Of a DNA stretch of 64,000 nucleotides, positions 5,952-40,166 are shown in pieces. The position numbers were made by a program, and so were the translations under genes. Each line of letters begins with the position of its first letter. Position 1 is the first letter of the stretch. This DNA comes from a virus: positions 3,408 through 67,407 of IMG/VR virus record IMGVR_UViG_3300036859_000232; one strand, written 5' to 3'. The notes under the pieces are model-generated. The model saw nothing but the letters and a program-made list of their open reading frames with translations. It was not told the origin of the DNA and ran no database searches.

Positions 5952-7490
5952 TCAGCGGCCAGTGGCATGGAGATTCGAGAGATCGATGTCCGAACAGTCC
6001 TCCATGACCGATTCCTCGAAGGTGTACTTCGTCATGTGGAGGATGGCTTGAGTGGTCATGTCGACTTGATCGTCGGTCTCGTTGGCGGTACCGCGGAAGT
6101 CGGCGAGTTCCTTACGGTAACGCGGCACCCACAGACGCTCAGACTCAGACGGGATGTAGATGTTGCCGCCGATCTGGTACGGCTGGACGGCGTGGGCGCG
6201 CGAGAGTTTCGAGCCGTACTCACCGGGGTCGAACTCCATGAGACCTCCGACACGTGAGCGGAGTTGGTCGATGACGGCGGTCCCGTTGGCCTTGTCCTCG
6301 ACAAGGATGCCGGTGGCCTTAGGATAGCGACCGCGCGCAATCGTGACGAAGGTCTTGAGTTCGATGCAGGTGTTTGTGAACGAGAACTTCCCGCGGAGAA
6401 GATCGATAAGGAAGAAGTCCATGTCGATGCGACCCCATAGTCCCATGACAACCCAGTCAGAGGATTTCAGGTCTTTGAACGCACAGTCGAGCGACGTGAG
6501 CATCTGGTCGAAGTTGCGCGGAAGCGGCATGTCGGAATCGCCGCCCCAATACCTCCACTTCGACTCAGCGAAGATGCAACCTTCGGCTTCTCGCGGATCT
6601 TGGTTCCAGAGGCAGTTCCAACTATAGGTCGAGACGGTTCGCTCGATCTGTTCGGCCTCGGCGTATGCGTCCTTGAGTGTGAAGTCGGCTTGCGGGCGGA
6701 GAAGTGGTTCACCGGGCGAGCGACCAAGCGGATCCGGGATGGGGTTGTCGTCATCATCACGGATCTCTTGTGCGACGTAGGGGATGCGGATGAACTTCCA
6801 GTCGGCAGGATCACCCTCGTAGTCGTCGGATTCGAGACGACCGATGAAATCTTCCGGATGCCAGCGCACCATCGTGACGACAACGACGGTCCACGGCTGG
6901 AGACGACCGTAGATGACGGATGTCCAGTTGTTCCAAATAGCGTTCTGGTGGGTGGGGGACATGGCCTGATCGAAGTTTTTGGTCGGGTCATCAATGCCGA
7001 GAAACGAGAGTGGACGGCCTTGGACGGAGCCCGCCATACCGACTGCATAGACACCGCCGCCTTGTCCGCTCTCGCCAGGTTCGGTCTGCCAATAGGTCTT
7101 GGAGCGGGAGTCTTTGCGTAGACGCGTGAACCACTTGGATTGGTCGGCAGCGATAGTGCGACGGACCTTGTCGGAGAAGTCCATTGCGAGCCCGTCTTCA
7201 TACGACATGATGCCGACGAGCCCACCGGGAACGATGCCGAGGGCATGGAGTTCGAGCCACCAGAGCGGTGTGCCGATGGAGGTTACGAAGGACTTGCCGA
7301 ACTGTTGCGGGATGGAGATAGCTATCCATCGGGGTCCGTCACCGTTGACAGCATCAACGATCGCGTCGGAGATGATCTTCTGGTGAGCACGAGGCCGGAA
7401 GTTGGGAGTGATACGCGTACAAGTCGCGAGTGGAGATGAGAGGTAAACGACGTCTTCGGATTCGAGGAGGATGTCTGTGTCGAGAGGCAC
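5952..7490 (-). CDS. terL: Terminase large subunit
   Basis: Walker A PQQFGKS, Walker B LGIDDP, TMVRWH coupling motif, RNase H-like nuclease residues (SLD, EDKANG, DDQVD). Leaderless TAATAT-6nt-GTG. Confidence 0.93.
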   Translation of the reverse strand: MPLDTDILLESEDVVYLSSPLATCTRITPNFRPRAHQKIISDAIVDAVNGDGPRWIAISIPQQFGKSFVTSIGTPLWWLELHALGIVPGGLVGIMSYEDGLAMDFSDKVRRTIAADQSKWFTRLRKDSRSKTYWQTEPGESGQGGGVYAVGMAGSVQGRPLSFLGIDDPTKNFDQAMSPTHQNAIWNNWTSVIYGRLQPWTVVVVTMVRWHPEDFIGRLESDDYEGDPADWKFIRIPYVAQEIRDDDDNPIPDPLGRSPGEPLLRPQADFTLKDAYAEAEQIERTVSTYSWNCLWNQDPREAEGCIFAESKWRYWGGDSDMPLPRNFDQMLTSLDCAFKDLKSSDWVVMGLWGRIDMDFFLIDLLRGKFSFTNTCIELKTFVTIARGRYPKATGILVEDKANGTAVIDQLRSRVGGLMEFDPGEYGSKLSRAHAVQPYQIGGNIYIPSESERLWVPRYRKELADFRGTANETDDQVDMTTQAILHMTKYTFEESVMEDCSDIDLSNLHATGR

Positions 7491-7543: not shown

Positions 7544-7756
7544 TTACTGCTCATGGCAACCGTGATAACACCAATCATCGGCACGTTCCGTCTTCTTCGG
7601 ATCGTCGGTCATCTGCTCGTTGCGGAAGTGTCCGCATGGTAGGCGAACGTAACGCAGACCATCGGGAGTCTGGAAGTAGGCTCCGATCTCGATGGTCGAC
7701 CAATCCGCGAGGTTGAAAACAACGGGTGGAGAGTGAAGTTGCGTTTTCTTCGTCAT
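7544..7756 (-). CDS. Hypothetical protein
   Basis: ATGA-coupled small ORF with Cys/His residues. Confidence 0.55.
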   Translation of the reverse strand: MTKKTQLHSPPVVFNLADWSTIEIGAYFQTPDGLRYVRLPCGHFRNEQMTDDPKKTERADDWCYHGCHEQ

Positions 7757-8055
7757 TCGGGAGTTGATCCCTGCTCCACTGCCGGAACTTCGATTCCAGC
7801 CTGCATCATCCAGCGTCGGACCTCGTCGGGCTTCATCTGTAGCGCCAACTCGAACCCGAGGAGCAGCCGTGCGAACTTCTGCTTGAGCGCGAAGACATAG
7901 AACTCGTCGCGCTTCTCGTCGGGCAGCTCGATGTTGAGCCGGTACTGGTGGATCTCGTCATAGTCGCGCTCGATGACCGCATCGGGGAACCCCTCTCGGA
8001 CCAGCGCCTCGTACGTGTCGGGCTCGTCCTCGGCGTACAGCAGGTCGATGAACAT
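7753..8055 (-). CDS. Hypothetical cassette gene
   Basis: TGATG coupled. Ends AVEQGSTPE (junction motif). Confidence 0.7.
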   Translation of the reverse strand: MFIDLLYAEDEPDTYEALVREGFPDAVIERDYDEIHQYRLNIELPDEKRDEFYVFALKQKFARLLLGFELALQMKPDEVRRWMMQAGIEVPAVEQGSTPE

Positions 8056-8267
8056 CAATCGCTCCTGTCCGTTGGTCCTTGGTGAACGGACGCTTCGTGG
8101 AGCCGCAGGTGCATCTCGATGCAGGCCCGCTTGTCGTTGATGTGAGGCAGGTCCGGGATCGCAACACCGTGAACTTCATGCAGGTGTCCTCGCGTGCCGG
8201 TGGTGAACGCCGTCACGACCAGGTGGAAGGCGTGAGGCCGTCGCATGTCCTCTCTCGTCAGGCTCAT
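8055..8267 (-). CDS. Hypothetical cassette gene
   Basis: GAGGAGG RBS. Ends SVHQGPTDRSD (junction motif). Confidence 0.65.
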   Translation of the reverse strand: MSLTREDMRRPHAFHLVVTAFTTGTRGHLHEVHGVAIPDLPHINDKRACIEMHLRLHEASVHQGPTDRSD

Positions 8268-8578
8268 CAGCCCTCCTCGCTCGCGGAGGAATGCTGAACT
8301 GACGCCCTCATCGTGGCACCGTAGCTGAGTGTCCAGCGCTCTACGGCCCGCTCAGCGACAAGCAAAGGTTCCATCACGAACGCGTCCGATTGCGTTGGGC
8401 GCGCATCGCAGTCGCAGTCGGCGTCATCCGAACACATCGACGCGCAGCCGAGATCGTGCCAGAGCGTCTTACGAAGCGTCCTGGTGAGATCGGCGACGAT
8501 AGCTCGCGCTTCGTCCCGCTCATTCCGATAGACCTCCACTAACGTCTCCGCCGCTTGGAGGTCGAGTGGTTTGCTCAT
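8267..8578 (-). CDS. Hypothetical cassette gene (H-C-C-C-C cluster)
   Basis: ATG 8578, ATGA coupled. Ends SVQHSSASEEG. Confidence 0.65.
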   Translation of the reverse strand: MSKPLDLQAAETLVEVYRNERDEARAIVADLTRTLRKTLWHDLGCASMCSDDADCDCDARPTQSDAFVMEPLLVAERAVERWTLSYGATMRASVQHSSASEEG

Positions 8579-8841
8579 GACTCGCTGTCCTGACGGGATG
8601 AATGATGAACTGCCGTCGTTGGTCGGTCGTAGCCGACTCGCATCAGCCAGTCCATCGTGTAGCCGTACGACTTGCTCGCCCACTCACGCTCTTGGCGTGC
8701 TTCACGCCGGAGATCGCGACGAGGACGAGACAGGAGCCGGTGTGTTTTCGCTTCAGCGTCCAACGCGTCCGCACGGCGGTGACGGTACTTGAACCGCTCA
8801 CCAGCCGCGTGCTCGTGAGCCTCCCACTCGTCCCTCGTCAT
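8575..8841 (-). CDS. Hypothetical cassette gene
   Basis: ATGA coupled. Ends AVHHSSRQDSES. Confidence 0.6.
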   Translation of the reverse strand: MTRDEWEAHEHAAGERFKYRHRRADALDAEAKTHRLLSRPRRDLRREARQEREWASKSYGYTMDWLMRVGYDRPTTAVHHSSRQDSES

Positions 8842-9437
8842 GCATCCCCCTCGCTGGCTCCTGAACGGTGAGCGGGTGACGGTTGGTCAGTCCGCTTGAT
8901 GCCGAAGTCCTTCGCCTTGATCTTCACCATGCGCCCGTCGTCGTGCCACCAGACGATTCCCTCGATGTTGTGGGTGGCGAGGTAGTCGCGGATCGCATCG
9001 AACGTCCTGAATGGCATGACCAGTTTCACGTCTCCGTGAGGACGCAGGACGTGGCCGTAGCAGCCCTCAGGGTTCCCCTGCACCTTCGGGCCAATGAGTT
9101 CATAGGTGCCGTCTACTAACGACTGGCGACATGCGTCATACGCCTCGCGGTGGTACTGATGCTCAGGGCCGTCACCGACCGGAACCCAGCCCTGTTGCTT
9201 GCCCGTGTTCTCATCCACGTCGTTCGCCGGGACGAAGTCGGTAGGTGGCGTCTTGCCCTTCTTAACCTCGTACCGGGCGAACATTTTGCCGTCCTCGATG
9301 AGAACGCAGGTGCCGTCCCACTTCTGCGTAGGCACACCTTCACCAGCCAGAACCCATTCCGCGCCTGGAACGACCTCGTCACGAACGAGATGGTCCCCGT
9401 CGTAGTTGCGTTGGTAGAGGCTGATGATCTTCTTCAC
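8838..9437 (-). CDS. RNA ligase-like nucleotidyltransferase (DUF5565-like)
   Basis: KWDGT (motif I KxDG), YELIGPKVQGNP, EGIVW and MVKIK motifs. GTG start coupled to the upstream stop. Confidence 0.75.
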   Translation of the reverse strand: MKKIISLYQRNYDGDHLVRDEVVPGAEWVLAGEGVPTQKWDGTCVLIEDGKMFARYEVKKGKTPPTDFVPANDVDENTGKQQGWVPVGDGPEHQYHREAYDACRQSLVDGTYELIGPKVQGNPEGCYGHVLRPHGDVKLVMPFRTFDAIRDYLATHNIEGIVWWHDDGRMVKIKAKDFGIKRTDQPSPAHRSGASEGDA

Positions 9438-9709
9438 TCTGACTCCGTGGTTAGAGCGGAGGACTCGTGAACTGCCTTCAGGTCGGGTCGTCGCCACCCA
9501 TGGACAGGGCAGACGTTGACGGTTACGAGACGAGGACAACAGCACGGCTCGTTGGGCGCCGCGTCGAAGAAACTCTCGAGAACAGCACGGGCGATATGGT
9601 CAGCATTAGTCGCCATCGCCGTCGTACACCACGGGATAGCCCGAATCCGCTCGGCGGCCGACTCGACCTCAGCTTCGACTTGCTCACGAAGCCAGACGTC
9701 ATCGGTCAC
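9434..9709 (-). CDS. Hypothetical cassette gene (CPVHG Zn motif)
   Basis: AAGGAGG RBS. CCC...CPVHG. Ends AVHESSALTTESE. Confidence 0.65.
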   Translation of the reverse strand: MTDDVWLREQVEAEVESAAERIRAIPWCTTAMATNADHIARAVLESFFDAAPNEPCCCPRLVTVNVCPVHGWRRPDLKAVHESSALTTESE

Positions 9710-9810
9710 TTCGGTGTCACCTCCTTCGGCTTATCGCGCTTCTCCCCGCAGCGCGTACACCGGCTGAGTGCCGGGTGGTTCATCCCGTCGCACTTGCTGC
9801 ACTTCCACAT
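9706..9810 (-). CDS. 34-aa RanBP2-type zinc-finger microprotein
   Basis: MWKCSKCDGMNHPALSRCTRCGEKR matches W-x-C-x2-C-x3-N-x6-C-x2-C. Coupled at both ends. Confidence 0.7.
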   Translation of the reverse strand: MWKCSKCDGMNHPALSRCTRCGEKRDKPKEVTPK

Positions 9811-10028
9811 CAGGCGTCCGTTCTCTCGTTGTGCGCTGCCCAGTCGCACTTCCAGATGGAGTCCGGTGAGCAGCCCACGCAGTTGTGACCATCACCATCA
9901 GGGTCGTTCCACGGGTGGTCCGGGCGAGGGTCTTCCTCCGTTGCGCGAAGCGCCGCCAGCGCGTCGTCGCGGGAGTCGAACTGGTTGAGCCAGTTGGTCA
10001 GCCACTTCGGCACTTCCACGCTGCTCAA
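9810..10028 (-). CDS. Hypothetical cassette gene
   Basis: TTG start overlapping the upstream TGA. Ends AAHNERTDA. Confidence 0.55.
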   Translation of the reverse strand: MSSVEVPKWLTNWLNQFDSRDDALAALRATEEDPRPDHPWNDPDGDGHNCVGCSPDSIWKCDWAAHNERTDA

Positions 10029-10171
10029 TCCGTCACCGCGGACTTGTGCTGAACCGGTTCTTTCCGACGGTAGACCCAGATGCCGAACCCGGCGTGGTAG
10101 CACTCGAACGGGGACGCTTCCTCCATCTGCTTCCAGGCCGTGCAGACGGCGTCGGGGTGCGGTCGCTTCAT
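10025..10171 (-). CDS. 48-aa cassette microprotein
   Basis: MKRPHPDAVCTAWKQ...PVQHKSAVTD. Coupled at both ends. Confidence 0.55.
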   Translation of the reverse strand: MKRPHPDAVCTAWKQMEEASPFECYHAGFGIWVYRRKEPVQHKSAVTD

Positions 10172-10356
10172 GACTCACCGTCCCGTGTGGATGACTGCTC
10201 AAGCGCCGCGACCATCAGCTTCGAGTCCATGTGCTGCGCCAAGTAGCTCCGAACCGCCTTCTCGCAGAGTTCCCCGATCTCTGAGTCCTCGATGCAGGCT
10301 TGTACCCGGACGAGACGATGCAGGTTGTCGTCCACCCTCACGTAAAGCACCTTCAC
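10168..10356 (-). CDS. Ribbon-helix-helix-like DNA-binding protein
   Basis: LYVRVDDNLHRLV...IGELCEKAVRSYL pattern. Ends LEQSSTRDGES. Confidence 0.6.
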   Translation of the reverse strand: MKVLYVRVDDNLHRLVRVQACIEDSEIGELCEKAVRSYLAQHMDSKLMVAALEQSSTRDGES

Positions 10357-10829
10357 TCGGTCCCCTCTGTCCGTTCCGTCACTCTGGAGTTGCCATCCGC
10401 CAGCCCCGCTGGTGAATCAGGAACGTCAGCACTCGTAGCACTCTTCATGACCTCGAATAGTTCCTTGAGCCAGTCACCCGAGCACGTGAGCCCGTAGATC
10501 GCAGCAGCAACTAACAACTCGGCGTCATCGTCGGCTTCCAGGGCATTGATGAGCTTGTCCACGTTCTCTCGAACCTGGTGCGCCTGCTTGATGTACCGCT
10601 GCCGCTCCCGAGCATTCATGTCCGTGACGAGCTTCGCCATCTCACTTGCCTCCTGACTCGGTGTCTCTCGACTGGATGACTGCTCATCGGATACGGTGTA
10701 GCGCCCAGACTCGTAGGCGTCACCGTGCTTGTTCTGGATCGCGATTGCATCGAGCACGGTGCCTCCCTTAACGAGGATTCCCTCGACCTTCGACTGAGCC
10801 GTCTGCTTCCACCACACAATCCATCTCAT
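10353..10829 (-). CDS. Fusion of two cassette genes (internal RBS and ATG at 10640)
   Basis: Internal junction repeat at 10642-10686, with AGGAGG before ATG 10640. Confidence 0.6.
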   Translation of the reverse strand: MRWIVWWKQTAQSKVEGILVKGGTVLDAIAIQNKHGDAYESGRYTVSDEQSSSRETPSQEASEMAKLVTDMNARERQRYIKQAHQVRENVDKLINALEADDDAELLVAAAIYGLTCSGDWLKELFEVMKSATSADVPDSPAGLADGNSRVTERTEGTE

Positions 10830-10855
10830 GACTCACCGTCCTGTTTGGATGGCCA

Positions 10856-11113
10856 CTAGACTGCCGACCGCATACCCTCGGGGGCGAGGGGATCGAGGGT
10901 AGCGGTAGCGGCAGTCTTCCCAGCGTTGACGATGGTCCAACGAGAAGCGACCGGACAGTCCATGTAGTCGATCACGCGGCTATGACCTATCTTGCAGACC
11001 TCTTCGACGAGAACGGAGTCCCATGACTCACCCGGAGCGAAGTTGAGGAGGACATGAACGTGGATGGTCGGTCCACCGTCGTACGAGAGTGTCGCGTTGT
11101 GAACCTTCCTCAT
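10856..11113 (-). CDS. Hypothetical protein
   Basis: ATGA coupled. The stop falls inside a degenerate junction motif. Confidence 0.55.
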   Translation of the reverse strand: MRKVHNATLSYDGGPTIHVHVLLNFAPGESWDSVLVEEVCKIGHSRVIDYMDCPVASRWTIVNAGKTAATATLDPLAPEGMRSAV

Positions 11114-11385
11114 CGCGTCCATCTCTCATCGATCGGCGCACACAACCCACCCGCCGCCTGGAGGTTCTTCGACTGGTCGAACGGTCCGCGTCTCTTCCCG
11201 TAGCGGTGGAACTCGACGACTTCTCTGCGCGCGCTGAACGTCGGCAGCAGGTCACGGATTCGCGGTGGTGATTCGTTACGCGTGAACCAGTTCGCGAGTC
11301 GGCCCGTGTGATTGGAGAGTCGACGGAGCGCACGGGTGACGATGACAAGGAAGCGGAACATGCGGATGTTCCATCGGCTGCTCAT
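11110..11385 (-). CDS. Hypothetical protein carrying capsid-like motifs
   Basis: Contains LQAAGGLCAPID, compared with capsid LTAAGGLCAPVN. ATGA coupled at both ends. Confidence 0.5.
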   Translation of the reverse strand: MSSRWNIRMFRFLVIVTRALRRLSNHTGRLANWFTRNESPPRIRDLLPTFSARREVVEFHRYGKRRGPFDQSKNLQAAGGLCAPIDERWTR

Positions 11386-11546
11386 CGCTTCGTCTGTTTC
11401 GCGTACGCCTTCATCGCACGACGGACGATCGCTCCTATCGAACGGTCCTCCAGTTCAGCGATGCGACGGATCTCGTTGTAGATGTCCTTCTCTACGCGGA
11501 TGGACTGGTACTCCTTCAGCGGCTGATTCGAGGGTGGTCTTGGCAT
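11382..11546 (-). CDS. Arc/CopG-like ribbon-helix-helix regulator
   Basis: SIRVEKDIYNEIRRIA..EDRSIGAIVRRAM. Leaderless start after TGGACG-17-CATACT. Confidence 0.8.
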   Translation of the reverse strand: MPRPPSNQPLKEYQSIRVEKDIYNEIRRIAELEDRSIGAIVRRAMKAYAKQTKR

Positions 11547-15064: not shown

Positions 15065-15175
15065 TCACTCACTCTCGCAATCGTGACCGTTGAACCATTC
15101 GTTCGCGTCCGTCTCGTCCGTGAGGTCGAACACGCGCCCACACTCCGGACACTTCGCTTCCGTTCTGACGTTCAT
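15065..15175 (-). CDS. 36-aa Zn-binding microprotein
   Basis: MNVRTEAKCPECGRVFDLTDETDANEWFNGHDCESE after GGGAGG. Confidence 0.7.
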   Translation of the reverse strand: MNVRTEAKCPECGRVFDLTDETDANEWFNGHDCESE

Positions 15176-15179
15176 TGCG

Positions 15180-15273
15180 CCTCCCTGTCTCGTCGGATAC
15201 CACAACTTACCACCATGTTGACAAACTGTCAACACCCTGCTACGGTGTGTCTTGTCCGACGAGAGAAGGGAGT
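15180..15273. promoter_or_regulatory. Divergent overlapping promoters sharing a palindromic operator
   Basis: TGTTGACA-AAC-TGTCAACA at 15216-15234. Plus strand TTGACA-17-TACGGT, minus strand TTGACA-17-TAAGTT. CCGACGAGA leaders on both sides. Confidence 0.75.
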
Positions 15274-17146: not shown

Positions 17147-17648
17147 GCCGCTCGTCGGTCACCATCGTCCGGTAAAAGGGCTGACGAACGACTGGCTCAC
17201 TCCACCGTCGATCATCGAAGCGCTCGGACCGTTCGACTTGGACCCCTGCGCGAGCGTCGATCAACCGTGGGAGACAGCTCGCACGCAATGGACACACGGT
17301 GGGTTAGAAGTTCCGTGGACTGGATTCACGTGGATGAATCCTCCGTTCGGACGCGATATTCCCGCGTGGCTGAAACGCATGACCGAACACGACAACGGGA
17401 TCGCCCTTTGCGCGGTGAGGACTGAGACGACGTGGTTCCGCGATTACGTGTGGAACGAGGCTGACGCGATCCTGTTCCTCCATCGTCGTCCACACTTCCA
17501 CTATCCGGTGACAGGAGTACGCGCTAAGTCGAACAGCGGCGTTCCGATCTGTCTCGCAGGATACGGACTACTCGCGATGGAGCGATTGAAGAACAGCAGG
17601 ATCAACGGAACCTACGTCAGTCAGTGGGAGCCGATTCATCCTCAATAA
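17136..17648 (+). CDS. Phage N6-adenine DNA methyltransferase
   Basis: DWLTP, FDLDPCA, WMNPPF and RTETTWF motifs. Confidence 0.88.
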   Translation: MSSKPLVGHHRPVKGLTNDWLTPPSIIEALGPFDLDPCASVDQPWETARTQWTHGGLEVPWTGFTWMNPPFGRDIPAWLKRMTEHDNGIALCAVRTETTWFRDYVWNEADAILFLHRRPHFHYPVTGVRAKSNSGVPICLAGYGLLAMERLKNSRINGTYVSQWEPIHPQ

Positions 17649-18321
17649 CGACGCCTTCAACCTCCAACACCTGCGTCGTCTCGATCGCCATCGCTTCCGT
17701 CAGTCCTCGCAATGTCTTGTTCTGCAAGATCCGCTTGACCATCGCGCCCTTCACCTGCAACTGACCTGACGGTGGAGTCACATCCCCCGTTGACGACAAC
17801 GCCTCTCTCTCCGCTCGCTGATGTGCGGGAAGGTCGCTGCCGAACAGCTTCGCCAGTCGCATGAGTCCAACGTCGTCAAGGTCCGCAATGACCGCCAGCG
17901 TCCCGCCCTGTTCGCGGATCCGCTTCCGCAGCTCAGTCACAGGCTGCATCAGTACCTCTTGGATCTCTGCGGCCTGATCCGCGTGCTTCGTCGCCGCCGC
18001 CACTCTCCGCCGTTTGTGTACGGCAACTTCCTTCGCGGTCATGAAGTTGTCGTATGCCTCGGCGCGTTCCTTCCACCGATGCTTACGACTCCACTGAGCG
18101 CACTGGTTCGTCGCTGGCTTGAGTCCGTACTTCTCCGCGTATCGACGACCGGCCTCCGCAATGGTGCGCTGTCCGTGGTCGAGGTTGAGGTAAATCGTGA
18201 ATGCCTCGTATGCCTTACCGGATTCCTCCGGCTGACGTAGCCACGGATCACCCTTGTACTCGCGGTCGGCGTTCTTCGCGTAGTTCGGCATGGAGATGGG
18301 GGAACGCGCGAGTTCGGACAT
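17617..18321 (-). CDS. terS: Terminase small subunit
   Basis: W.RQPEESGKAYEAF..Y...W...H.WKERAEAYD pattern typical of this TerS family. Leaderless TACCGT before ATG. Confidence 0.7.
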   Translation of the reverse strand: MSELARSPISMPNYAKNADREYKGDPWLRQPEESGKAYEAFTIYLNLDHGQRTIAEAGRRYAEKYGLKPATNQCAQWSRKHRWKERAEAYDNFMTAKEVAVHKRRRVAAATKHADQAAEIQEVLMQPVTELRKRIREQGGTLAVIADLDDVGLMRLAKLFGSDLPAHQRAEREALSSTGDVTPPSGQLQVKGAMVKRILQNKTLRGLTEAMAIETTQVLEVEGVVIEDESAPTD

Positions 18322-33722: not shown

Positions 33723-33953
33723 ATGAACTCACCTGCCGACTTCGACGCGCTCACCTGCTCGCGGAAGAAGAAGGGCGAAATCGCGATGATGTTGCAAGTC
33801 TGGAACGAGAGCATCTATCGCGGTGGATTCAGTGAGTCTCATCATCAGGGTGGCGGCATCCTCGGGATCAACTACTACGCAAAGGTTCGTACCGCCGCGA
33901 AGAAGGTCGGTCTGATGGTTGGGACTATCCCTTGGAACCCGAGGAAGATATGA
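33723..33953 (+). CDS. Hypothetical protein
   Basis: ORF coupled to the ERCC4 gene. Confidence 0.5.
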   Translation: MNSPADFDALTCSRKKKGEIAMMLQVWNESIYRGGFSESHHQGGGILGINYYAKVRTAAKKVGLMVGTIPWNPRKI

Positions 33954-34645
33954 CGAAGTTCCTTGTCTCCCCTGCCGAACGCCCACCAATCACCACGCTT
34001 GGTACGAACTCGCCACTCCCCGAACGTGTCGGCTCAGACATCATCTGGCAGGGCGCGGAGGGGCTCGCGGGCTGTCAGCGCAAAGCCATCCCCGACCTCA
34101 TCTCGTCTGTTCACGACAACCGACTCGGACGCGAGGTCGGACAGATGTCCAAAGCCGACCTGCGTTACCGATTCCTCGTCATCGAGGGTCAACCGTCCTG
34201 GGACCGTGAAGGCAATCTTGCAGGGTCGAGGTCACGTTGGTCGATACGTCAGCACAACGGCGTACTCTTGTCCGTCCAACAGCAAGGGATCCAGGTCGTC
34301 TCGTCACGTACGTCACTGGAGACATGCGCGGTCATCCAACACCTGTACGATTGGACGCAAAAGAAGGACCACGTGTCGAGTCTGCTGGCGCGAGAGAAGA
34401 CGCCGAAGAACGGATGGGGGCAGGTCGACGACAAGACAACGTTCGTTCACTTCTTTAGCGCGGTCGACGACATCAAGGACAAGATGGCCGCGAGGATCTA
34501 TGACATGTACGGAAATATCCTGACGCTAACGGTCGGTGAGGAGGAGTTGTTCAAGGTACCGGGACTAGGACCCAAGAGAGTCGCAAGCATCCTGAAAACG
34601 TTCGGGGTTGTTCAGCAGTCATCCACACGGGACGGTGGGTCATGA
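33950..34645 (+). CDS. ERCC4-type nuclease with HhH
   Basis: D...QRK...DLISS..D.RL, LVIEG, and VPGLGPKR HhH. Confidence 0.8.
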   Translation: MTKFLVSPAERPPITTLGTNSPLPERVGSDIIWQGAEGLAGCQRKAIPDLISSVHDNRLGREVGQMSKADLRYRFLVIEGQPSWDREGNLAGSRSRWSIRQHNGVLLSVQQQGIQVVSSRTSLETCAVIQHLYDWTQKKDHVSSLLAREKTPKNGWGQVDDKTTFVHFFSAVDDIKDKMAARIYDMYGNILTLTVGEEELFKVPGLGPKRVASILKTFGVVQQSSTRDGGS

Positions 34646-34947
34646 GCGACGGTGTTCTGAACCGCAACTGGCGGGCCGAGATCGGCTCCCGCATCCTCAC
34701 GGTCGAGCAGCGCGAAGGCTCCTGGACCGACTGGAGTACGGAGCCCGAGACGAAGCGAGAGGGACCGTACTGGACCGTCATCGACAAGGACACGCAGCAG
34801 CAGATCGGATCGTTCGGCATGGCTGTCGAGATGGCGACGAAGGAAGCGGCGATGAAGGAAGGCGAGCGGTTCGGGTCGAAGTGGGACTGGCCGATGGTCG
34901 ACCCCGACGAACTCGCGGAGCACAAGAGAACGGACGCCGATGGCTGA
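34642..34947 (+). CDS. Hypothetical cassette gene
   Basis: ATGA coupled. Ends AEHKRTDADG. Confidence 0.65.
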   Translation: MSDGVLNRNWRAEIGSRILTVEQREGSWTDWSTEPETKREGPYWTVIDKDTQQQIGSFGMAVEMATKEAAMKEGERFGSKWDWPMVDPDELAEHKRTDADG

Positions 34948-35149
34948 GGGCAAGCTCGTCTGCGAAATCGAGGCGCTCTGCGAGAAATGCGGCACCTGGC
35001 ATTCGGTCGTCCTGACCGACACGAACACACCGGGCCGGGAGGAATGGACGATCCGTATGCGCTGTCTCGCCTGCGGGTTCGCTCCGCTCGCGACCGCGGG
35101 CAAGCAGGTCCGACGACTGGCTCACAACGAGTCCGGCGGTGACGAGTGA
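34940..35149 (+). CDS. Zn-ribbon cassette gene
   Basis: CEKC...CLACG. Ends AHNESGGDE. Confidence 0.6.
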   Translation: MAEGKLVCEIEALCEKCGTWHSVVLTDTNTPGREEWTIRMRCLACGFAPLATAGKQVRRLAHNESGGDE

Positions 35150-35493
35150 GACTCCGTGACCACCTGCGCGGCACGAAGGAGATTCCGTGGCATGGCAAGG
35201 CTATCCGGCTCGTTGAGGAAGGACGCCGCGTCCACGGCACCCACCTGATGCATGACGTGATGGTCTGTGTGGCGACGACGGACCCGGTGTTCGCGTTCCG
35301 GCGCTACATCAGCGACATCGGCACGTCATGGGGGGACAACGAGTCCAGTCGGAGACGGTGGGTCATGACCTGTCCGCGCTGCACGTCCTCGCAGGTCGTC
35401 ACGAAGAACCGGCCCTACCTGTCGGCGTACCTCTCATGCCTCAGGTGCGACTACAAGTGGCGACTGGTCCGTGGCCGGGTGGTGCCCGCATGA
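35146..35493 (+). CDS. Zn-ribbon cassette gene
   Basis: CPRC...CLRCDYKW. Coupled. Confidence 0.55.
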   Translation: MRLRDHLRGTKEIPWHGKAIRLVEEGRRVHGTHLMHDVMVCVATTDPVFAFRRYISDIGTSWGDNESSRRRWVMTCPRCTSSQVVTKNRPYLSAYLSCLRCDYKWRLVRGRVVPA

Positions 35494-35741
35494 ACTTCGA
35501 CCAGGCCATCATCCTGCTCACCGGGTTGGTCGTCGTCGGGAGCATCGCGTTCATGGTCTGGTACGAGAACCGGCCAACCCACCGCTGCGCTACTCCGCTG
35601 GCTGCTCGATACGGCGCTGAGTGGTCGTGCGCGTGCGGACGCACCTACGTCTTTGGCTCGTATCCAGGTGCGCTGCCCGGTGGAATGTGGAGACAGCGAC
35701 TCGTGGACGAGTCCTCCAGTGAAGACGATCGGTCAACATGA
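35490..35741 (+). CDS. Membrane-anchored cassette gene
   Basis: MNFDQAII... TM helix, H.C...W.CACG. Ends VDESSSEDDRST. Confidence 0.6.
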   Translation: MNFDQAIILLTGLVVVGSIAFMVWYENRPTHRCATPLAARYGAEWSCACGRTYVFGSYPGALPGGMWRQRLVDESSSEDDRST

Positions 35742-35849
35742 CTCACCTTGCGCGCTACGCGCGCTGCGTTCCCGGTAAGACCCGAGAGGCAGAGGGAGGA
35801 CAGGGCGGCTTTGCCTCTGTCCCCCTTTGCTTCGAGGGAAGGGGGACAA

Positions 35850-36020
35850 ATGGCGACTGAGCGGTTAGTTGTACCTGAAGAACATCTCGCCGAAGTCATT
35901 CGCGTTATTCGAACCGGAGTTCACCACACTCGTCCGCTGAAACGGGAAGTTCGTCTGGAATTACTGCGGTGGTGTGATGACGAGGAACAGTATCTTCGGG
36001 ACCTCGAAGAAGATGACTGA
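35850..36020 (+). CDS. Hypothetical small protein
   Basis: L.VPEEHL.EVIRVIR.G...WC.DEE.YL. RBS lies inside the hairpin TGTCCCCCTT/AAGGGGGACA. Confidence 0.6.
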   Translation: MATERLVVPEEHLAEVIRVIRTGVHHTRPLKREVRLELLRWCDDEEQYLRDLEEDD

Positions 36021-37650
36021 TCTCTCGGCTGTTCTCACCTTCCGCCAGCACCTTCGCGAATGCACGGCCTGTCCACTTCACGCACAATGCAAGGGTCCTG
36101 TCCCGTGGCGCGGTGACCTCAACCCCGAGTTCGCCGTCATGGGTGAGGCTCCCGGCAGGACTGAGGACGCGCGAAACGAACCGTTTGTCGGCGACACAGG
36201 CAACATCCTCAACCACTGGCTGAAAATCAAGGGATTCGATCCGAAGGTGATGACCTACTTCAACGCGGTGCAGTGTTACCCGAAGCGTCTACAACCGAAG
36301 CCCACCGCTGCGGAGATGAAGGCGTGTCGCGGATGGATGAACGGCCAACTGGAATTCATCCGGCCGAAGATCCTCATCACGCTGGGAGTGACAGCGTTCG
36401 AGTCGCTGATCGGCGGACGATGGCCGGAACTCAAACTCGTTCATGGGAAGCCTCTCATGCACCCGACATACGGCTGCTGGGTGTGGCCGTGTGTGGACGA
36501 GAAGACGAAGGCTCTTACCCCGCAAGGATGGAGAGGGTTCGAGGAACTTTCGGATGGAGATCTCATTGCAGTTGTGAACCCTCAGACGTTAACGTCTTCT
36601 TGGGAGCCTGCATCCTTCCATGGATACGACTACCACGATGAGATGGTCGTGATCGACGCGCGGTCATCCTCGCAATGGCTCTCCCCGAACCACCGTTGTC
36701 TCGTCCGTGATAGAGGGCAGAGACAATCAGTGATCGAGGCTTGGCAGCTAGATCCCCAACAAGCAAGACATGAGCTACCGATCCGTCATCAACTCCTAGC
36801 CGAACCAAGTCGTTCAATCGGTCAGGACTGGGCTGCGCTCGTTGCCTGGTACATCACCGAGGGCAGCATCCCTCACCACACTGGGAGTTCGATTCGTATC
36901 TACCAATCGTTGCGGACGGGACATGTTGAGACGATCAGGAAACTTCTCTACACAGTCGGGGCCACGTTCAAGGAACGTAATCCCCGCAGCGACGAATACG
37001 TCTTCTCGGTAACCGGACGAGTGGCCGAGAGGCTTCGTGCGCTAGCCCCTGGTCGAACAATGACTTCCGCGATGGCGCATCTGCCATATTCCGAAGCTGA
37101 CGCATTTCTCCAAGCTTTCATCGATGGTGATGGACATCGTTCTACTCGACGTAATCGTGAGGAACTTTCCATCATTCAGAAACCAGGACCAACGGTTGAC
37201 CAGCTTCAGATCCTCTTAGCGAGATTGGGCTGGAGGTCTATCGTTCGACCTCACGGCGACTGTGTGCGGATCGACATCAATGCGAAGTCCTGGTTCCAGC
37301 CTTACCCGCAGTCATTGGGAACAACGTCCTATCAAGGAACTATCTGGTGTCCTTCTACAAGCTCGGGATTCTGGGTGGCTCAACGCGACGGGTTCCCATT
37401 CATCACTGGTAATACCTACCACCCGTCCGCGTACTTGCGTGGGAGGAATAAGACCTACGAGACGAAGATCCTGAACGACCTCGAACGGTTGCGGATCTGG
37501 TGGACGAATCAAGAGGGTGGACTGGACATCTGTTACATCGCGAGTTGCGACCGACCGTTCTATCGGTATGACGACTGGGCGATCGGACTGTGTCAGCATC
37601 ATGCACAACGACAGGGGAGCCTCTTCCCGGAAGACGTAGGAGCCAGATGA
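36013..37650 (+). CDS. Family 4 uracil-DNA glycosylase containing an intein
   Basis: CTACPL, GEAPG..ED...PFVG, NAVQC, TLG..A and TYHPS motifs. Interrupted by an intein. Confidence 0.9.
   Translation: MTDLSAVLTFRQHLRECTACPLHAQCKGPVPWRGDLNPEFAVMGEAPGRTEDARNEPFVGDTGNILNHWLKIKGFDPKVMTYFNAVQCYPKRLQPKPTAAEMKACRGWMNGQLEFIRPKILITLGVTAFESLIGGRWPELKLVHGKPLMHPTYGCWVWPCVDEKTKALTPQGWRGFEELSDGDLIAVVNPQTLTSSWEPASFHGYDYHDEMVVIDARSSSQWLSPNHRCLVRDRGQRQSVIEAWQLDPQQARHELPIRHQLLAEPSRSIGQDWAALVAWYITEGSIPHHTGSSIRIYQSLRTGHVETIRKLLYTVGATFKERNPRSDEYVFSVTGRVAERLRALAPGRTMTSAMAHLPYSEADAFLQAFIDGDGHRSTRRNREELSIIQKPGPTVDQLQILLARLGWRSIVRPHGDCVRIDINAKSWFQPYPQSLGTTSYQGTIWCPSTSSGFWVAQRDGFPFITGNTYHPSAYLRGRNKTYETKILNDLERLRIWWTNQEGGLDICYIASCDRPFYRYDDWAIGLCQHHAQRQGSLFPEDVGAR
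36490..37413 (+). mobile_element. Intein (308 aa) with LAGLIDADG-type homing endonuclease
   Basis: Begins CVDEKTKALTPQGW. Block B SPNHR. LVAWYITEG and FLQAFIDGDG motifs. Ends FWVAQRDGFPFITGN, followed by Thr. Confidence 0.9.
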
Positions 37651-37859
37651 CCAACGAGTCGAAGAAGTCACCACGCATCTCTGCCGGTGTCGCCATCGAG
37701 GAGATGCGTGCGGCATTGAACGTCGAGAGTGGCGAGCCCACGTTCGACGACGTCCAGTACGCCGCATACTGGGCGATGATCTATCTCGCCGAGAACAAGG
37801 CCGGTGAGTTCGGGCACGAGATGAAGAAGAGACGTGCCCTCGCGGAGCTGGACACATGA
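37647..37859 (+). CDS. Hypothetical protein
   Basis: AGGAG RBS, ATGA coupled. Ends ELDT. Confidence 0.6.
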
Positions 37860-38247
37860 GCCTTACTGAACGTCGAGCAATATTCGTCTACGAGGGAGCA
37901 CGACTCGCGGCCGTTGCTGCCAAGGCTCCAATCATCCCTGAACTATGGAAAGAACGCGAGCCGCATTTCCAGGAACAGTTCCTCGAAGTCATCGAACGAC
38001 AGATGGGGCCGATGCGTTCGGAGTCACCCGAGGAACTTCATGGCTCTTGGGTGCAGGCGTACGTCGACATGGGATGGACGTATGGATCCGAACGCGATAC
38101 CGAGAAGAAGACGCACCCGGACATGGTCCCGTACGCCAAACTCGGGCAGTTGGAGCAGGACAAGGATGCTGTGTTCGTAGCGCTGTGCGAGATCGCGCGT
38201 CAGTGGATTTACGACCTTCCGGATGAATCGGAGTTGGACACATGAGC
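37843..38247 (+). repeat. 19-nt direct repeat flanking the RyR-domain gene
   Basis: CGGAG(C/T)TGGACACATGAGC at 37843-37861 and 38229-38247. Confidence 0.8.
37856..38245 (+). CDS. RyR-domain protein
   Basis: H.SW.....GWTYG..RD..KKTHP.MVPY..L...EQDKD. Confidence 0.8.
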
Positions 38248-38529
38248 GACCAGAACGGACTCAAGGGTGGAGTGCTTCTCGGTGGTCGACAGTTCACCAT
38301 CACTCTCTCCCGCGAGCAGGACGCCACGCTGAAAGTTCTCGCGCAGATCAACAAGACCTCGGCTGGAGTGGTGCTCGACTACATCGTTGCCAAGGGGATA
38401 GACATGGCGTGGGAGGAATTCATGGTCAGTAAGTTGATGTGGTCGCTGGCGAATTGGGTGACGTGGGCGCGATGGGGGACGGCAGTTGAGCAGTCATCCA
38501 GTCGAGACACCGAGTCAGGAGGCAAGTGA
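38242..38529 (+). CDS. Hypothetical (RHH-like) cassette gene
   Basis: [17 protein letters not shown]. Ends [15 protein letters not shown]. Confidence 0.55.
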
Positions 38530-38948
38530 TGGGAACAAGGGCCGACTTCTACGTCGGACGCGGCAAAGACGCTGAGTGGCTGGGCTCGATCTCGTGCGAC
38601 GGCTACCCCGAGGGCATCGACATCGACGTCCTGATGACGACGACGCGGGAGACCTACGAGGCCGCGCTGATGCGGTTCTTCGCCCAGCGTGACGACGTGT
38701 CCGGGCCTGACCACGGCTGGCCTTGGCCCTGGAACGACTCGAACATCACCGACTACGCCTACGCCTTCGATGAGGGCAAGGTCTGGGCGCATGGGTACGG
38801 CTGGTTCGATCCGATGCAACCCGAGCCTGAGGAACACGACGACTTCGGGAAGCCGACAACCGAGTTCCCGGATATGAGCGAGCGCAAGAACGTCGCCGTT
38901 CCGGGCTCGATTCGCTCAGGAATGATCGCGTTCGGAGTGACCGAGTGA
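38529..38948 (+). CDS. Hypothetical protein (MGTRADFY...DGYP family)
   Basis: AGGAGG RBS supplied by the junction. WPWPW..S..TDYAY.FD. Confidence 0.75.
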   Translation: MGTRADFYVGRGKDAEWLGSISCDGYPEGIDIDVLMTTTRETYEAALMRFFAQRDDVSGPDHGWPWPWNDSNITDYAYAFDEGKVWAHGYGWFDPMQPEPEEHDDFGKPTTEFPDMSERKNVAVPGSIRSGMIAFGVTE

Positions 38949-38982
38949 CCACTCGTCAGCACAAGTCCGCTGGCGGTGCGGA

Positions 38983-39174
38983 GTGAGCGACTACCCCGAT
39001 AACTGGCCCGGGTTCACGGACGCCGAGGACATGCTGTGTGAGCACCATGCTTGCCGGTGCGCACGGGCGAACGAACTTGCATCTATGGGGCTGGTGCCGG
39101 ATGCGATTCGCGCGCACGAGGAGCGGGTCAGGTGTCGGCAGCGACCGGCCCACAACGAGAGAACGGACGCATGA
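38983..39174 (+). CDS. Hypothetical cassette gene
   Basis: GTGA coupled. Ends PAHNERTDA. Confidence 0.55.
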   Translation: MSDYPDNWPGFTDAEDMLCEHHACRCARANELASMGLVPDAIRAHEERVRCRQRPAHNERTDA

Positions 39175-39308
39175 AGGCCGGGAAGCGTCCACCGTGCTCG
39201 AAGTCGGATTGCAAGAACAAGGCCATCGTCCGCACAACCGAAGGCTGGTTCTGCGGCAAGCACTCGCCGCGCAAGGACGGCAAGAAGAAGAGTTGGAGAG
39301 GCTCGTGA
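39171..39308 (+). CDS. Small Zn-finger protein
   Basis: CSKSDC...WFCGKH. Confidence 0.55.
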   Translation: MKAGKRPPCSKSDCKNKAIVRTTEGWFCGKHSPRKDGKKKSWRGS

Positions 39309-39507
39309 CTTTCGGACGCCCGACGTGCGCTGGGGAAGCCCCATCCTGGGGTCCTGGCGCGGCGTCCGTTCACGAGTCCTCACCCGACGAGACTTGACAA
39401 CCTCTAAGAAATGTGGTCCACGGATCCCTGTCGAAGATTGACCTGACGCAGAGAGCCTCCTAGCGTGAACGGGTCCGACCAAAGACCCCAACACGGGAGG
39501 CTCTCGC

Positions 39508-39993
39508 ATGGCTACTGTACCCATCCAAGTCAAGCGTCATCCTGTCCTCACCGCCGTCCTCGCGTGGATCCTCGTCATGACTCCGGTGGGCATGACCGCT
39601 GAGGCCGCGTTCCATCTCGACCACACCTACGAGCCCAGTCATGGGATGGACCTCTTCCCTGACGTACAGGGGCTCCATACACAGCCGCCACAGGCCCTCC
39701 CTGCTCCTGTACGGGCTTCCGGCCACTCAGTTGTCGTCCAAGTCCATTTCAAGCCCGGAGGCGACTTCTGGCGGGCGCTGGCGAACTGTGAGAGCCCAGA
39801 CGGACGGTCAGGCCGATACCTCGGCTACTTCCAGTTCCACCCGAACACGTGGCAGGCCACGGGTGGCGGGGACCTCGGGTCCTACGAACACCAGAAGACT
39901 CGCGCGCAACAGTGGGCCGCGAAGGTGGATCCGGGGTCAACCGCGGGCTGGCCGGTGTGTTGGTGGCGGGCGAAGCGAGCCACGGGTGGCTGA
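39508..39993 (+). CDS. Rpf-like lytic transglycosylase with signal/anchor
   Basis: W.ALANCES...YLGYFQF...TW...GG...Q..RA...GWPVC. Upstream promoter TTGACC-17-TAGCGT. Confidence 0.8.
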   Translation: MATVPIQVKRHPVLTAVLAWILVMTPVGMTAEAAFHLDHTYEPSHGMDLFPDVQGLHTQPPQALPAPVRASGHSVVVQVHFKPGGDFWRALANCESPDGRSGRYLGYFQFHPNTWQATGGGDLGSYEHQKTRAQQWAAKVDPGSTAGWPVCWWRAKRATGG

Positions 39994-40156
39994 AGTCCAT
40001 CTGTTCACCCTTGTCTGTCCGGTCATTCTCGACAGCGATGGCAATCACATCGCCGGGTGCGGCAAGGGCTGGGAGTCCACCAACCGGACGGAAGCGTGTA
40101 CCGGGTGCGGGATGGTCGGCAAAGTGATCGACGTCACCTTTGTTCAGCCGGTCTAA
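39986..40156 (+). CDS. Small Zn-ribbon protein
   Basis: CP...GCG...CTGCG. Confidence 0.5.
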   Translation: MAEVHLFTLVCPVILDSDGNHIAGCGKGWESTNRTEACTGCGMVGKVIDVTFVQPV

Positions 40157-40166
40157 CCCTTCGTCG

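What the first reader, a model, noticed from the sequence alone, without database searches (positions are those of the whole stretch)
7753..10862. Conserved junction motif at nearly every accessory gene boundary: candidate gene-cassette shuffling system
Seen: about 12 consecutive small genes here and about 8 in 34.6-39.4 kb carry the same degenerate DNA motif, in frame 25-45 nt before the stop. Examples: GTT CAC GAG TCC TCC, GTT CAG CAT TCC TCC, GTT CAT CAT TCA TCC, GTT GAG CAG TCA TCC, GTT CAG CAC AAG TCC, GCT CAC AAC GAG TCC. The RBS and overlapping start of the next gene follow. Unrelated proteins therefore end in similar tails (VHESS, VQHSS, EQSS, AHNE). At 10856 the motif persists although a TAG falls inside it, and at 38956 it lies after the upstream stop, which argues for a DNA-level role. 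Inference: each unit is a mobile cassette (site right half, RBS, ORF, site left half) exchanged at these sites. This is integron-like in logic but has no attC palindromes and no recognisable integrase in the window.
Basis: partly seen in the sequence, partly recalled or inferred. Interest (0 to 1): 0.9.

Follow-up and report, generated by a model that had tools for sequence, protein, structure and literature searches.

The report
Repeated stop-start joints between phage genes
Two blocks of small accessory genes in an uncultured soil phage are stitched together by copies of one roughly 43-base joint that ends one gene and starts the next, and the joint probably serves both as a translation hand-over and as a seam where genes get swapped or fused.

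Summary
About 16-17 of 29 gene boundaries in two arrays (7.5-11.1 kb, minus strand; 33.9-39.4 kb, plus strand) carry copies of one ~43-nt element. It consists of a conserved left core (GGCAGTTCAGCAGTCATCC-like), a spacer, a ribosome-binding site, and a start codon overlapping the upstream stop. All copies lie in the sense orientation. None occurs elsewhere in the 67-kb genome, nor in 4.15 Mb of other phage and prophage DNA.

The DNA similarity exceeds what the shared peptide tails would give. The genes on either side of similar joints are unrelated.

Two ORFs are fusions of independent genes joined exactly at an element. In the three gene families that have close relatives, homology stops at or near the element.

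The complete genome has no integrase or resolvase, the element has no hairpin, and no conserved RNA structure or 16S complementarity was found. So this is not integron-like.

My best reading (about 0.45) is a portable translational-coupling joint that also acts as short homology for modular shuffling. That would be a translation-level analogue of T4 PeSLs and a relative of Cluster K start-associated sequences.

Relatives' DNA could not be fetched, so breakpoints were seen only through protein tails. This scan has noted similar junction linkers before in other phages; those notes are unchecked.

The parts
7544..11122 (-). Left array: 13 small ORFs (14 cassettes) directly upstream of the large terminase gene (5952-7490)
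   Evidence: ORFs. Fourteen of 16 array ORFs and one neighbouring ORF (11382-11546) looked up exist as identical predicted proteins in the public collection. RLIG1-like RNA ligase at 8838-9437.
33932..39397 (+). Right array: an ERCC4-type nuclease followed by about 15 small cassettes. It is interrupted by a terminator-like hairpin at 35803-35822 and by a 36016-37650 gene.
10826..10866 (-). Element copy. The upstream gene ends at a TAG inside the left core. The right half is intact before ATG 10829.
   Evidence: D3; E 4.6e-7. Not recovered in the leave-one-out test.
10638..10693 (-). Element copy inside ORF 10353-10829. A 2-nt insertion relative to the 38485 copy removes the stop, so two cassettes are fused. 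AGGAGG and ATG 10640 are kept.
   Evidence: I4: 26/26 identical; I11; 2-nt gap.
10168..10208 (-). Element copy of the consensus type, with ATGA overlap before gene 10025-10171.
   Evidence: I1: 44 nt, 86% with 34602-34645; E 1.7e-9.
10017..10059 (-). Element copy with a CAGCACAAGTCC core. The stop lies 5 nt before GTG 10019.
   Evidence: E 3e-3; 16/20 with the 38983 junction. Not recovered in the leave-one-out test.
9808..9846 (-). Second subtype (CACAACGAGAGAACGGACGC) before ATG 9810.
   Evidence: I6: 27 nt, 93% with 39148-39174; 17/20.
9434..9477 (-). Element copy with GTGA overlap before the RNA-ligase-like gene.
   Evidence: (E 3.2e-7).
8575..8615 (-). Element copy with ATGA overlap before gene 8267-8578.
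   Evidence: D3; E 3.8e-9.
8265..8304 (-). Element copy with TGATG overlap before gene 8055-8267.
   Evidence: E 2.2e-6; E 0.019.
8053..8093 (-). Degenerate copy seen by eye. It keeps GTTCAC and the 17-nt register. No statistical support.
   Evidence: In one search its junction has no family partner at >=15/20.
34602..34645 (+). Element copy forming the tail of the ERCC4 nuclease, with ATGA overlap before gene 34642-34947.
   Evidence: I1; E 4.8e-10.
35115..35149 (+). Hybrid-subtype copy (GCTCACAACGAGTCC) with GTGA overlap before ORF 35146-35493.
   Evidence: (16/20 with the 39171 junction).
35332..35367 (+). Copy inside ORF 35146-35493. The spacing is off by one, so the ATGA stop is out of frame and two cassettes are read as one ORF.
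   Evidence: (E 0.044). The 115-aa ORF is called as such in the public collection.
35698..35741 (+). Element copy forming the tail of gene 35490-35741. ATGA follows, then a 40-aa ORF or none, then a terminator-like hairpin.
   Evidence: E 2.9e-6; E 0.047.
38480..38529 (+). Element copy with a 26-nt spacer and GTGA overlap before gene 38526-38948. It is the near-identical partner of 10638-10693.
   Evidence: I2, I4, I11; E 3.8e-10.
38951..38986 (+). Copy lying behind the stop of gene 38526-38948. It keeps its own frame, ending in GTGA at the start of gene 38983-39174.
   Evidence: (16/20). The core frame is open for 41 codons upstream in another frame, so translation is not excluded.
39146..39174 (+). 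Second-subtype copy before ATG 39171. A weaker one lies at 34915-34947.
   Evidence: I6; 17/20 and 15/20.
39362..39397 (+). Left core only, forming the tail (ASVHESSPDET) of a 30-codon ORF at 39305-39397 that starts by GTGA overlap. No ribosome site or start follows.
   Evidence: (E 0.67).

Best explanation
**What it is.** The element is a portable translational-coupling joint.
- Its right half supplies the ribosome-binding site and a start codon overlapping the upstream stop. The site is often GGTGA or GGAG, complementary to the 16S 3' end.
- Its left half becomes the last 10-14 codons of whatever gene lies upstream.
- The copies are homologous DNA. They were spread and kept alike by recombination between joints, both within the phage and with its relatives. 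This is homology-driven recombination, not the work of a dedicated site-specific enzyme.
- Whole small ORFs can therefore be inserted, replaced, or (after a frame slip in the joint) fused, and still be translated.

**Shown.** The copy family, its orientation and its confinement to the two arrays. DNA-level similarity beyond the shared peptides. Unrelated flanking genes. Two fusions at joints. Tail replacement in relatives' proteins.

**Inferred.** That recombination at the joints caused these patterns, and that the joint couples translation.

**Unexplained.** Why the left core is conserved.
For: - **Real, localised family.** Profile hits occur only in the two arrays, and none occurs in 4.15 Mb of other DNA. 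Array junction pairs at >=15/20 identity number 21 of 325, against 14 of 4465 among other junctions.
- **DNA-level similarity.** After synonymous resampling of the upstream codons, the counts at >=15/16/17 of 20 fall from 21/10/6 to means of 4.4/1.6/0.4. None of 300 resamplings reaches the observed counts.
- **Val codon use.** Eight of the 10 in-frame Val codons opening the core are GTT. GTT makes up 20% of Val codons genome-wide.
- **Most similar pairs.** They lie in opposite arrays and join unrelated genes: 44 nt at 86%, 26/26 within a 45-nt block, and 27 nt at 93%. Trimmed array proteins show no paralogy.
- **Fusion at a joint.** All 28 non-self homologues of ORF 10353-10829 match only one half.
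- **ERCC4 nuclease.** Bodies end at ...KTF. The 83%-identical relative carries another subtype of the tail. More distant relatives carry unrelated tails.
- **8055-8267 protein.** Its cluster mate is alike up to ...MHLRLHEA and then unrelated.
- **8267-8578 protein.** It is 75% identical to its relative over 81 residues, and the last 21 residues are unrelated.
- **Controls.** Two neighbours without this element keep their C-termini in close relatives. Terminase alignments cover 96-100% of the query in the top ten relatives and 93-100% in most others.
- **Stop-start overlap.** It is present at 9 copies as ATGA or GTGA and at 2 as TGATG.
Against: - No DNA of relatives could be read, so breakpoints are known only from three protein families. 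C-terminal tails also evolve fast for other reasons.
- The laid contigs showed no rearranged forms.
- Copies within one array are only 73-78% alike over about 40 nt. That is poor substrate for homologous recombination.
- No RecT was found. A Sak4-like AAA_24 match is below the family cut-off.
- Twenty ATGA/GTGA overlaps outside the arrays lack the element, so coupling itself does not need the left core.
- The model does not explain conservation of the left core.
Confidence: 0.45

Rival explanations
1. Purely regulatory start-associated element, like the Cluster K SAS/ESAS. The left core would be read on RNA or DNA by a phage or host factor, or would mask the ribosome site until the upstream gene is translated. 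Copies would stay alike through selection, with no role in gene exchange.
For: - All copies are in the sense orientation, at a fixed register (17, 20 or 26 nt) from the start codon, and only at non-structural small genes.
- The 3' end of the core (TCCTCC or TCATCC) pairs with the ribosome-site region better than the same geometry does at 95 other junctions: -5.5 against -3.5 kcal/mol, Mann-Whitney p 0.006.
- SAS/ESAS show the same distribution and have an unknown reader (PMC3203893, passages read).
Against: - Core and ribosome site show no covariation (permutation p 0.73).
- There is no conserved RNA structure: 0 predicted pairs, z-scores -1.4 to +0.8.
- There is no Rfam match.
- The motif is absent from the tails of ERCC4 relatives at 64-69% identity, so it is not conserved at that junction.
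- Selection alone does not predict 26/26 identity between two copies while other copies differ widely.
Confidence: 0.25
2. Passive relic. The two arrays would descend from an inverted duplication of one array, or from serial reuse of one gene's 3' end. The genes have diverged or been replaced, and the joints survive only because they contain ribosome sites and stops.
For: - Junction subtypes appear in nearly the same order along both arrays: 10688~38485, 10054~38954, 9840~39146, 9472~39368, with 10203~34610 out of order.
- The right halves are ordinary ribosome site plus start.
Against: - The genes between matching joints show no residual similarity.
- The left core has no ribosome-site role, yet it is the best-conserved part.
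- Near-identical copies imply recent copying.
Confidence: 0.13
3. Dedicated site-specific cassette system in the integron sense, run by an unrecognised recombinase that reads the left core.
For: - The core is asymmetric and oriented, sits at cassette boundaries, and has mosaic left and right halves.
- Many array ORFs have no known family.
Against: - The complete genome has no tyrosine or serine recombinase.
- The site has no secondary structure.
- Copies are too degenerate for a specific site, with spacers of 10-33 nt.
- No circle or excision joints were seen (contigs only).
Confidence: 0.07
4. Protein-level signal. The shared C-terminal peptide (A-V-[HQE]-[HQE]-S-S followed by an acidic end) would be a tag, for example for degradation, or for stalling at termination.
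For: - The core is translated in the same frame in most copies.
- The variable positions are mostly third codon positions.
Against: - The frame is forced by the overlapping stop, so it is not independent evidence.
- DNA similarity exceeds what the peptides give.
- One copy is cut by a TAG after the Val codon, and one lies behind the upstream stop.
- Distant homologues of the same proteins lack the tail.
Confidence: 0.05

Closest known systems
PeSL (promoter-early stem-loop) cassettes of T4-type phages (Arbiol et al. 2010, PMC2839356: abstract and sections 13 and 16 read; Comeau et al. 2014, PMC4122927: search listing only)
   Same: - A repeated regulatory motif at the boundaries of ORFan genes in plastic regions.
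- It includes the upstream stop, and the Shine-Dalgarno and start of the next gene.
- It is proposed to act as short homology for insertion, deletion and replacement of the flanked genes.
   Different: - PeSLs are about 100 bp, intergenic, and built from a sigma-70 promoter plus a terminator hairpin.
- This element is about 43 nt and lies inside the upstream coding sequence.
- It has no promoter-like site: 0 were found in 34-40.5 kb.
- It has no hairpin, and it works, if at all, at the level of translation.
- PeSL mini-circles and relatives' breakpoints were shown experimentally. Here they could not be tested.
Start-associated sequences (SAS) and extended SAS of Cluster K mycobacteriophages (Pope et al. 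2011, PMC3203893: passages read)
   Same: - An asymmetric repeat in one orientation.
- It occurs only at non-structural genes, tied to start codons.
- It contains the ribosome site and precedes genes of unrelated families.
- Its reader is unknown.
   Different: - SAS is a 13-bp sequence 3-7 bp from the start. Its consensus has 0 matches in this window at up to 2 mismatches.
- ESAS are 17-bp inverted repeats.
- Here the conserved core lies 17-33 nt from the start (10-15 nt in second-subtype copies), is not an inverted repeat, and is translated as the upstream gene's tail.
Integron attC gene cassettes
   Same: Arrays of promoterless small ORFs in one orientation, separated by a recurring site.
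   Different: No integrase, no attC-type imperfect palindrome, and the sites overlap coding sequence.
Stoperators of Cluster A mycobacteriophages (recalled, and mentioned in PMC3203893)
   Same: Many copies of an asymmetric site, oriented with transcription, at gene boundaries.
   Different: Stoperators are 13-bp repressor sites in temperate phages. This genome has no integrase, and no repressor was identified. Binding was not testable.

Membership tests
Integron gene cassettes | Adjacent tyrosine recombinase (IntI) | tested here: not met
   PF00589 has 0 matches in the complete 67,407-bp genome, and PF00239 also has 0. The controls matched in 14 and 13 of 14 genomes.
Integron gene cassettes | attC site: imperfect inverted repeats able to fold as a hairpin | tested here: not met
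   The consensus fold of 10 copies has 0 pairs. Eight single folds gave z-scores of -1.37 to +0.80.
Integron gene cassettes | Excised circular cassettes | not testable with these tools
   Only contigs were available for the two runs, and the listed joints were self-matches of the repeat.
PeSL cassettes (T4-type phages) | Repeated motif at boundaries of ORFan genes in plastic regions, carrying the next gene's Shine-Dalgarno and start | tested here: met
   Most array ORFs have no Pfam family.
PeSL cassettes (T4-type phages) | Sigma-70-type promoter plus stem-loop terminator in the motif | tested here: not met
   There are 0 promoter-like sites in 34000-40500, and its 2 terminator-like sites lie outside the elements. 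No stable fold was found. The left array was not scanned for promoters.
PeSL cassettes (T4-type phages) | Differences between close relatives map to the motif | tested here: inconclusive
   Only protein tails could be compared. In 3 of 3 element-bearing families, homology is lost at or near the element. Two proteins without this element keep their C-termini. Relatives' DNA was not obtainable.
SAS/ESAS (Cluster K mycobacteriophages) | One orientation, restricted to non-structural genes, tied to start codons | tested here: met
SAS/ESAS (Cluster K mycobacteriophages) | 13-bp consensus 3-7 bp from the start; ESAS 17-bp inverted repeats | tested here: not met
   The consensus taken from the paper has 0 matches at up to 2 mismatches. 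The core is 17-33 nt from the start in first-subtype copies and 10-15 nt in the others. No inverted repeat was found.
SAS/ESAS (Cluster K mycobacteriophages) | Conserved across related phages at genes of different families | tested here: inconclusive
   One relative (P0122, 83% identical ERCC4) has a family-type tail, and relatives at 64-69% identity do not. No relatives' DNA was available.
Termination-reinitiation tether (TURBS-like; recalled analogy) | Upstream motif complementary to small-subunit rRNA | tested here: not met
   Six cores were tested against two actinobacterial 16S genes. The best duplexes were matched or beaten by 4-95 of 100 shuffles, and they fell at different rRNA positions.

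The most novel reading that the evidence does not exclude
The joints form an addressable exchange system that needs no classical recombinase. Joint subtypes occur in nearly the same order in two divergent operons. Because every copy is in the sense orientation, recombination between an inverted pair would swap the distal arms of the two operons and leave every gene correctly oriented. Double crossovers in neighbouring joints would replace single cassettes. The conserved left core would be the recognition or pairing site of an unidentified phage factor that promotes this exchange.
Probability: 0.12. Interest if true: 0.8.

Novelty: new variant of a known kind. Interest (0 to 1): 0.55.

Why it matters
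How phages insert new small genes into tightly packed, translationally coupled operons without breaking expression is an open question. A joint would give a simple rule for viable modular shuffling if three things hold: it carries the stop, ribosome site and start; it tolerates any upstream gene by becoming its tail; and it offers homology for exchange. The same joint would explain how gene fusions arise.

Such joints would also be useful markers for cassette boundaries in uncultured phage genomes. The case is limited to one genome, and exchange is shown only indirectly.

Tried and rejected
- **Iterative 15-nt weight matrix.** It drifted to a generic codon pattern (GTC GAC GAG...) and was dropped.
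- **Exact-pattern scan of IMG/VR.** It returned 105 stretches (82 listed, each with a single match). None carries the full element (at most 15.7 bits). I read these as chance hits.
- **Search for relatives' DNA.**
  - No match in GenBank phages by megablast.
  - By blastn there were only short hits to an RNA-ligase gene and a RyR gene.
  - Terminase relatives reach at most 37% identity in IMG/VR, at most 36% in JGI metagenomes, and at most 39% in GTDB genomes.
  - ERCC4 relatives reach at most 41% in IMG/VR.
  - Closer relatives (47-72% terminase identity) exist only as proteins from Logan assemblies.
- **Sequencing runs.** Two soil runs hold the phage: X1 is probably its source, and X2 has identical fragments. 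Laying them gave only self-matches of the repeats and one low-support joint in X2 (side 20, 31 foreign letters). No rearrangement was seen. No RNA holder is listed.
- **RNA-level tests.**
  - No consensus structure.
  - No cognate covariation between core and ribosome site.
  - No 16S complementarity.
  - No Rfam family.
- **Recombinases.** Phage_integrase, Resolvase and RecT are absent. AAA_24 matched at 21.6 bits, below its cut-off.
- **Functions in the early region.** Pfam and PHROGs gave only a helicase, a HerA-like ATPase, a topoisomerase-like protein and the ERCC4 nuclease.
- **Not used.** Structure prediction, fold search, complex prediction and the protein-atlas search.
- **Supplements.** The supplementary files of the two papers were not opened. 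Tables S1-S6 and Figures S3-S4 of PMC3203893 may hold more SAS detail.

Full report
**Context.** The window is bases 3408-67407 of a 67,407-bp virus contig with direct terminal repeats, rated 100% complete. Two soil metagenome runs hold it.
- Its large terminase (5952-7490, minus strand) is at most 37% identical to terminases of Microbacterium and Arthrobacter phages. It is therefore a new actinophage-like lineage.
- Genes from about 15.2 kb leftwards, including 7544-11122, are on the minus strand. Genes from 15.4 to 40.2 kb are on the plus strand.
- From gene orientation alone, I infer that the two arrays lie at the far ends of two divergent blocks.

- A loose pattern matched 6 places. All are in the two arrays and all are in the sense of the genes.
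- Aligning 10 copies shows that similarity runs from about 7 nt before GTT to the start codon.
- A profile built from them found only those 10 (E 4e-10 to 3e-3), plus 35343 (E 0.044) and 39363 (E 0.67), in the whole genome on both strands. Everything else scored E >= 1.4.
- Leaving one copy out at a time recovered 8 of 10. The best other hit was always 35343.
- In 4.15 Mb of 347 other phage, prophage and metagenome loci, the best score was 15.7 bits, against 23-35 bits for nine copies here.

Without any model, I compared the 42 nt before 121 start codons all against all:

| Pair class | Pairs at >=15/20 | Pairs at >=16/20 |
|---|---|---|
| Array with array | 21 of 325 | 10 of 325 |
| Other with other | 14 of 4465 | 2 of 4465 |
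| Array with other | 6 of 2470 | 0 of 2470 |

A second subtype (CACAACGAGAGAACGGACGC) links 9808-9846 with 39146-39174 (27 nt at 93%) and, more weakly, with 34915-34947.

By these criteria about 16-17 of 29 boundaries in the two arrays carry a copy. The small-gene blocks at 11.3-24 kb have none.

**Anatomy.**
- The left core of about 19 nt is followed by a spacer of 17, 20 or 26 nt. The spacer holds the ribosome site, often GGTGA or GGAG.
- These ribosome sites are complementary to the 16S 3' end ...GGATCACCTCCTTT, read from two actinobacterial genomes.
- The start codon overlaps the upstream stop. Nine copies use ATGA or GTGA, two use TGATG, one has an 8-nt overlap, and one has a 5-nt gap.
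- The stop is part of the element and the spacers differ by multiples of three. The core is therefore automatically read in one frame, which yields the shared tails.
- The in-frame position is a consequence of this design, not separate evidence.
- Where the spacing is off, the stop is missed. A 2-nt insertion in the 10688 copy, and an offset of one in the 35332 copy, put two cassettes into one ORF (10353-10829 and 35146-35493).

**DNA or peptide?**
- I redrew synonymous codons in the upstream genes. The number of similar pairs fell from 21/10/6 (at >=15/16/17 of 20) to means of 4.4/1.6/0.4. None of 300 redraws reached the observed counts.
- Eight of the 10 in-frame Val codons that open the core are GTT. 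GTT is 20% of Val codons in the genome.
- One copy has a TAG directly after the Val codon yet keeps its right half. One copy lies behind the upstream stop.
- The similarity is therefore at the nucleotide level, through constraint, recent common descent, or both.

**What it is not.**
- It has no conserved fold: 0 consensus pairs, with single folds no better than shuffles.
- The 3' end of the core is complementary to ribosome-site sequences in general (-5.5 against -3.5 kcal/mol at 95 control junctions, p 0.006). It does not co-vary with its own site (p 0.73).
- It shows no consistent complementarity to 16S rRNA.
- It matches no Rfam family.
- There are no promoter-like sites in 34-40.5 kb.
- There is no match to the Cluster K SAS consensus.
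- The genome has no integrase, resolvase or RecT.
- Twenty ATGA or GTGA overlaps elsewhere in the genome lack the element. The left core is therefore not needed for overlap coupling as such.

**Evidence for exchange at the joints.**
1. *The most similar copies lie in opposite arrays and join unrelated genes*. With the last 14 residues trimmed, the array proteins show no paralogy: the best E was 0.038 in a 32-protein set.
2. *ORF 10353-10829 is a fusion.* Of its 28 non-self homologues in 1.84 billion representatives, 25 are proteins of 76-112 aa that match only residues 63-147, starting from their own residues 1-9. Three are proteins of 54-58 aa that match only residues 1-47. None spans the joint.
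3. *Close relatives' proteins differ at the tail.*
   - ERCC4 homologues all end their conserved body at ...KTF. The 83%-identical one continues with another subtype of the same tail family. Those at 64-69% identity continue with unrelated tails.
   - The cluster mate of the 8055-8267 protein is alike up to 3 nt before the core, then unrelated.
   - The relative of the 8267-8578 protein is 75% identical over 81 residues, and its last 21 residues are unrelated.
   - As controls, the 37647-37859 protein, which has another joint type, is conserved to its last residue in its cluster mate. The 7544-7756 protein has no joint behind it. It keeps its C-terminus but differs at its N-terminus, which lies next to a joint.

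These are three families seen only as proteins. They are suggestive, not decisive.

**Mechanism.**
- I favour a portable coupling joint that doubles as short homology for modular shuffling (0.45).
- The main rival is a purely regulatory start-associated element (0.25).
- A passive relic of an inverted duplication (0.13) fits the near-collinear order of joint subtypes in the two arrays. It does not fit the near-identical copies or the conserved non-ribosome-site core.
- A dedicated site-specific system (0.07) and a peptide tag (0.05) are unlikely, for the reasons given above.

**Comparison with known systems.**
- In logic the element is closest to the PeSLs of T4-type phages: regulatory cassettes at ORFan boundaries that mediate shuffling (PMC2839356, abstract and sections 13 and 16 read).
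- It differs from PeSLs in being shorter, coding, and free of promoter and hairpin.
- It shares its distribution and orientation with Cluster K SAS/ESAS (PMC3203893, passages read). It does not share their sequence, position or form.
- It fails the defining tests for integron cassettes.
- Earlier notes of this scan describe similar junction linkers in other uncultured phages. I did not check them.

**Limits.**
- This is one genome, assembled at about 15x depth.
- The host is unknown.
- No DNA of relatives, no raw reads and no RNA data were available.
- The fusions could in principle be assembly errors. However, the 115-aa ORF was called identically from two independent sources, JGI/IMG and Logan, and the 158-aa ORF is on record under both.

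Noticed in passing
window 37843-37861 and 38229-38247: A second joint type. Nearly the same 19 nt (ending ...GGACACATGAGC) precedes both the RyR-domain gene (37856-38245) and the next gene, so two adjacent proteins end in ELDT. In a cluster mate at >=90% identity, the upstream protein keeps this tail unchanged.
   Followed up: partly
window 10688/38485, 10054/38954, 9840/39146, 9472/39368: Joint subtypes occur in nearly the same order along the direction of transcription in both arrays. Only the pair 10203/34610 is out of order. By my own hand count, a random order of five would do as well in about 5 of 120 cases. The pairs were chosen after seeing the data.
   Followed up: partly
window 39305-39397: A 30-codon ORF starts by GTGA overlap with the stop of gene 39171-39308 and ends in the family tail ASVHESSPDET. 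No downstream start follows.
   Followed up: partly
window 36016-37650: A long ORF in the right array has an insertion of about 300 residues. I saw only the translation and ran no family search on it.
   Followed up: no
window 35803-35822: A terminator-like hairpin with a T-run splits the right array, directly after the element copy at 35698-41.
   Followed up: no
window 8001-10000, 34001-36000, 38001-40000: The array segments have G+C of 0.616-0.624, against 0.54-0.61 in most of the window.
   Followed up: no
window 17617-18321 (minus): A 234-aa protein matches a PHROG annotated as terminase small subunit (E 3e-13). It lies 10 kb from the large terminase and on the opposite strand to the genes around it.
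   Followed up: no
window 15176-15235: A palindromic TTGACA...TGTCAA sequence lies upstream of the leftward gene 15065-15175, in the gap between the two divergent gene blocks.
   Followed up: no
window 31047-31499: A sub-threshold match to AAA_24 (Sak4-like ATPases; 21.6 bits against a cut-off of 27) in the ATPase gene upstream of the HerA-like and ERCC4 genes.
   Followed up: partly
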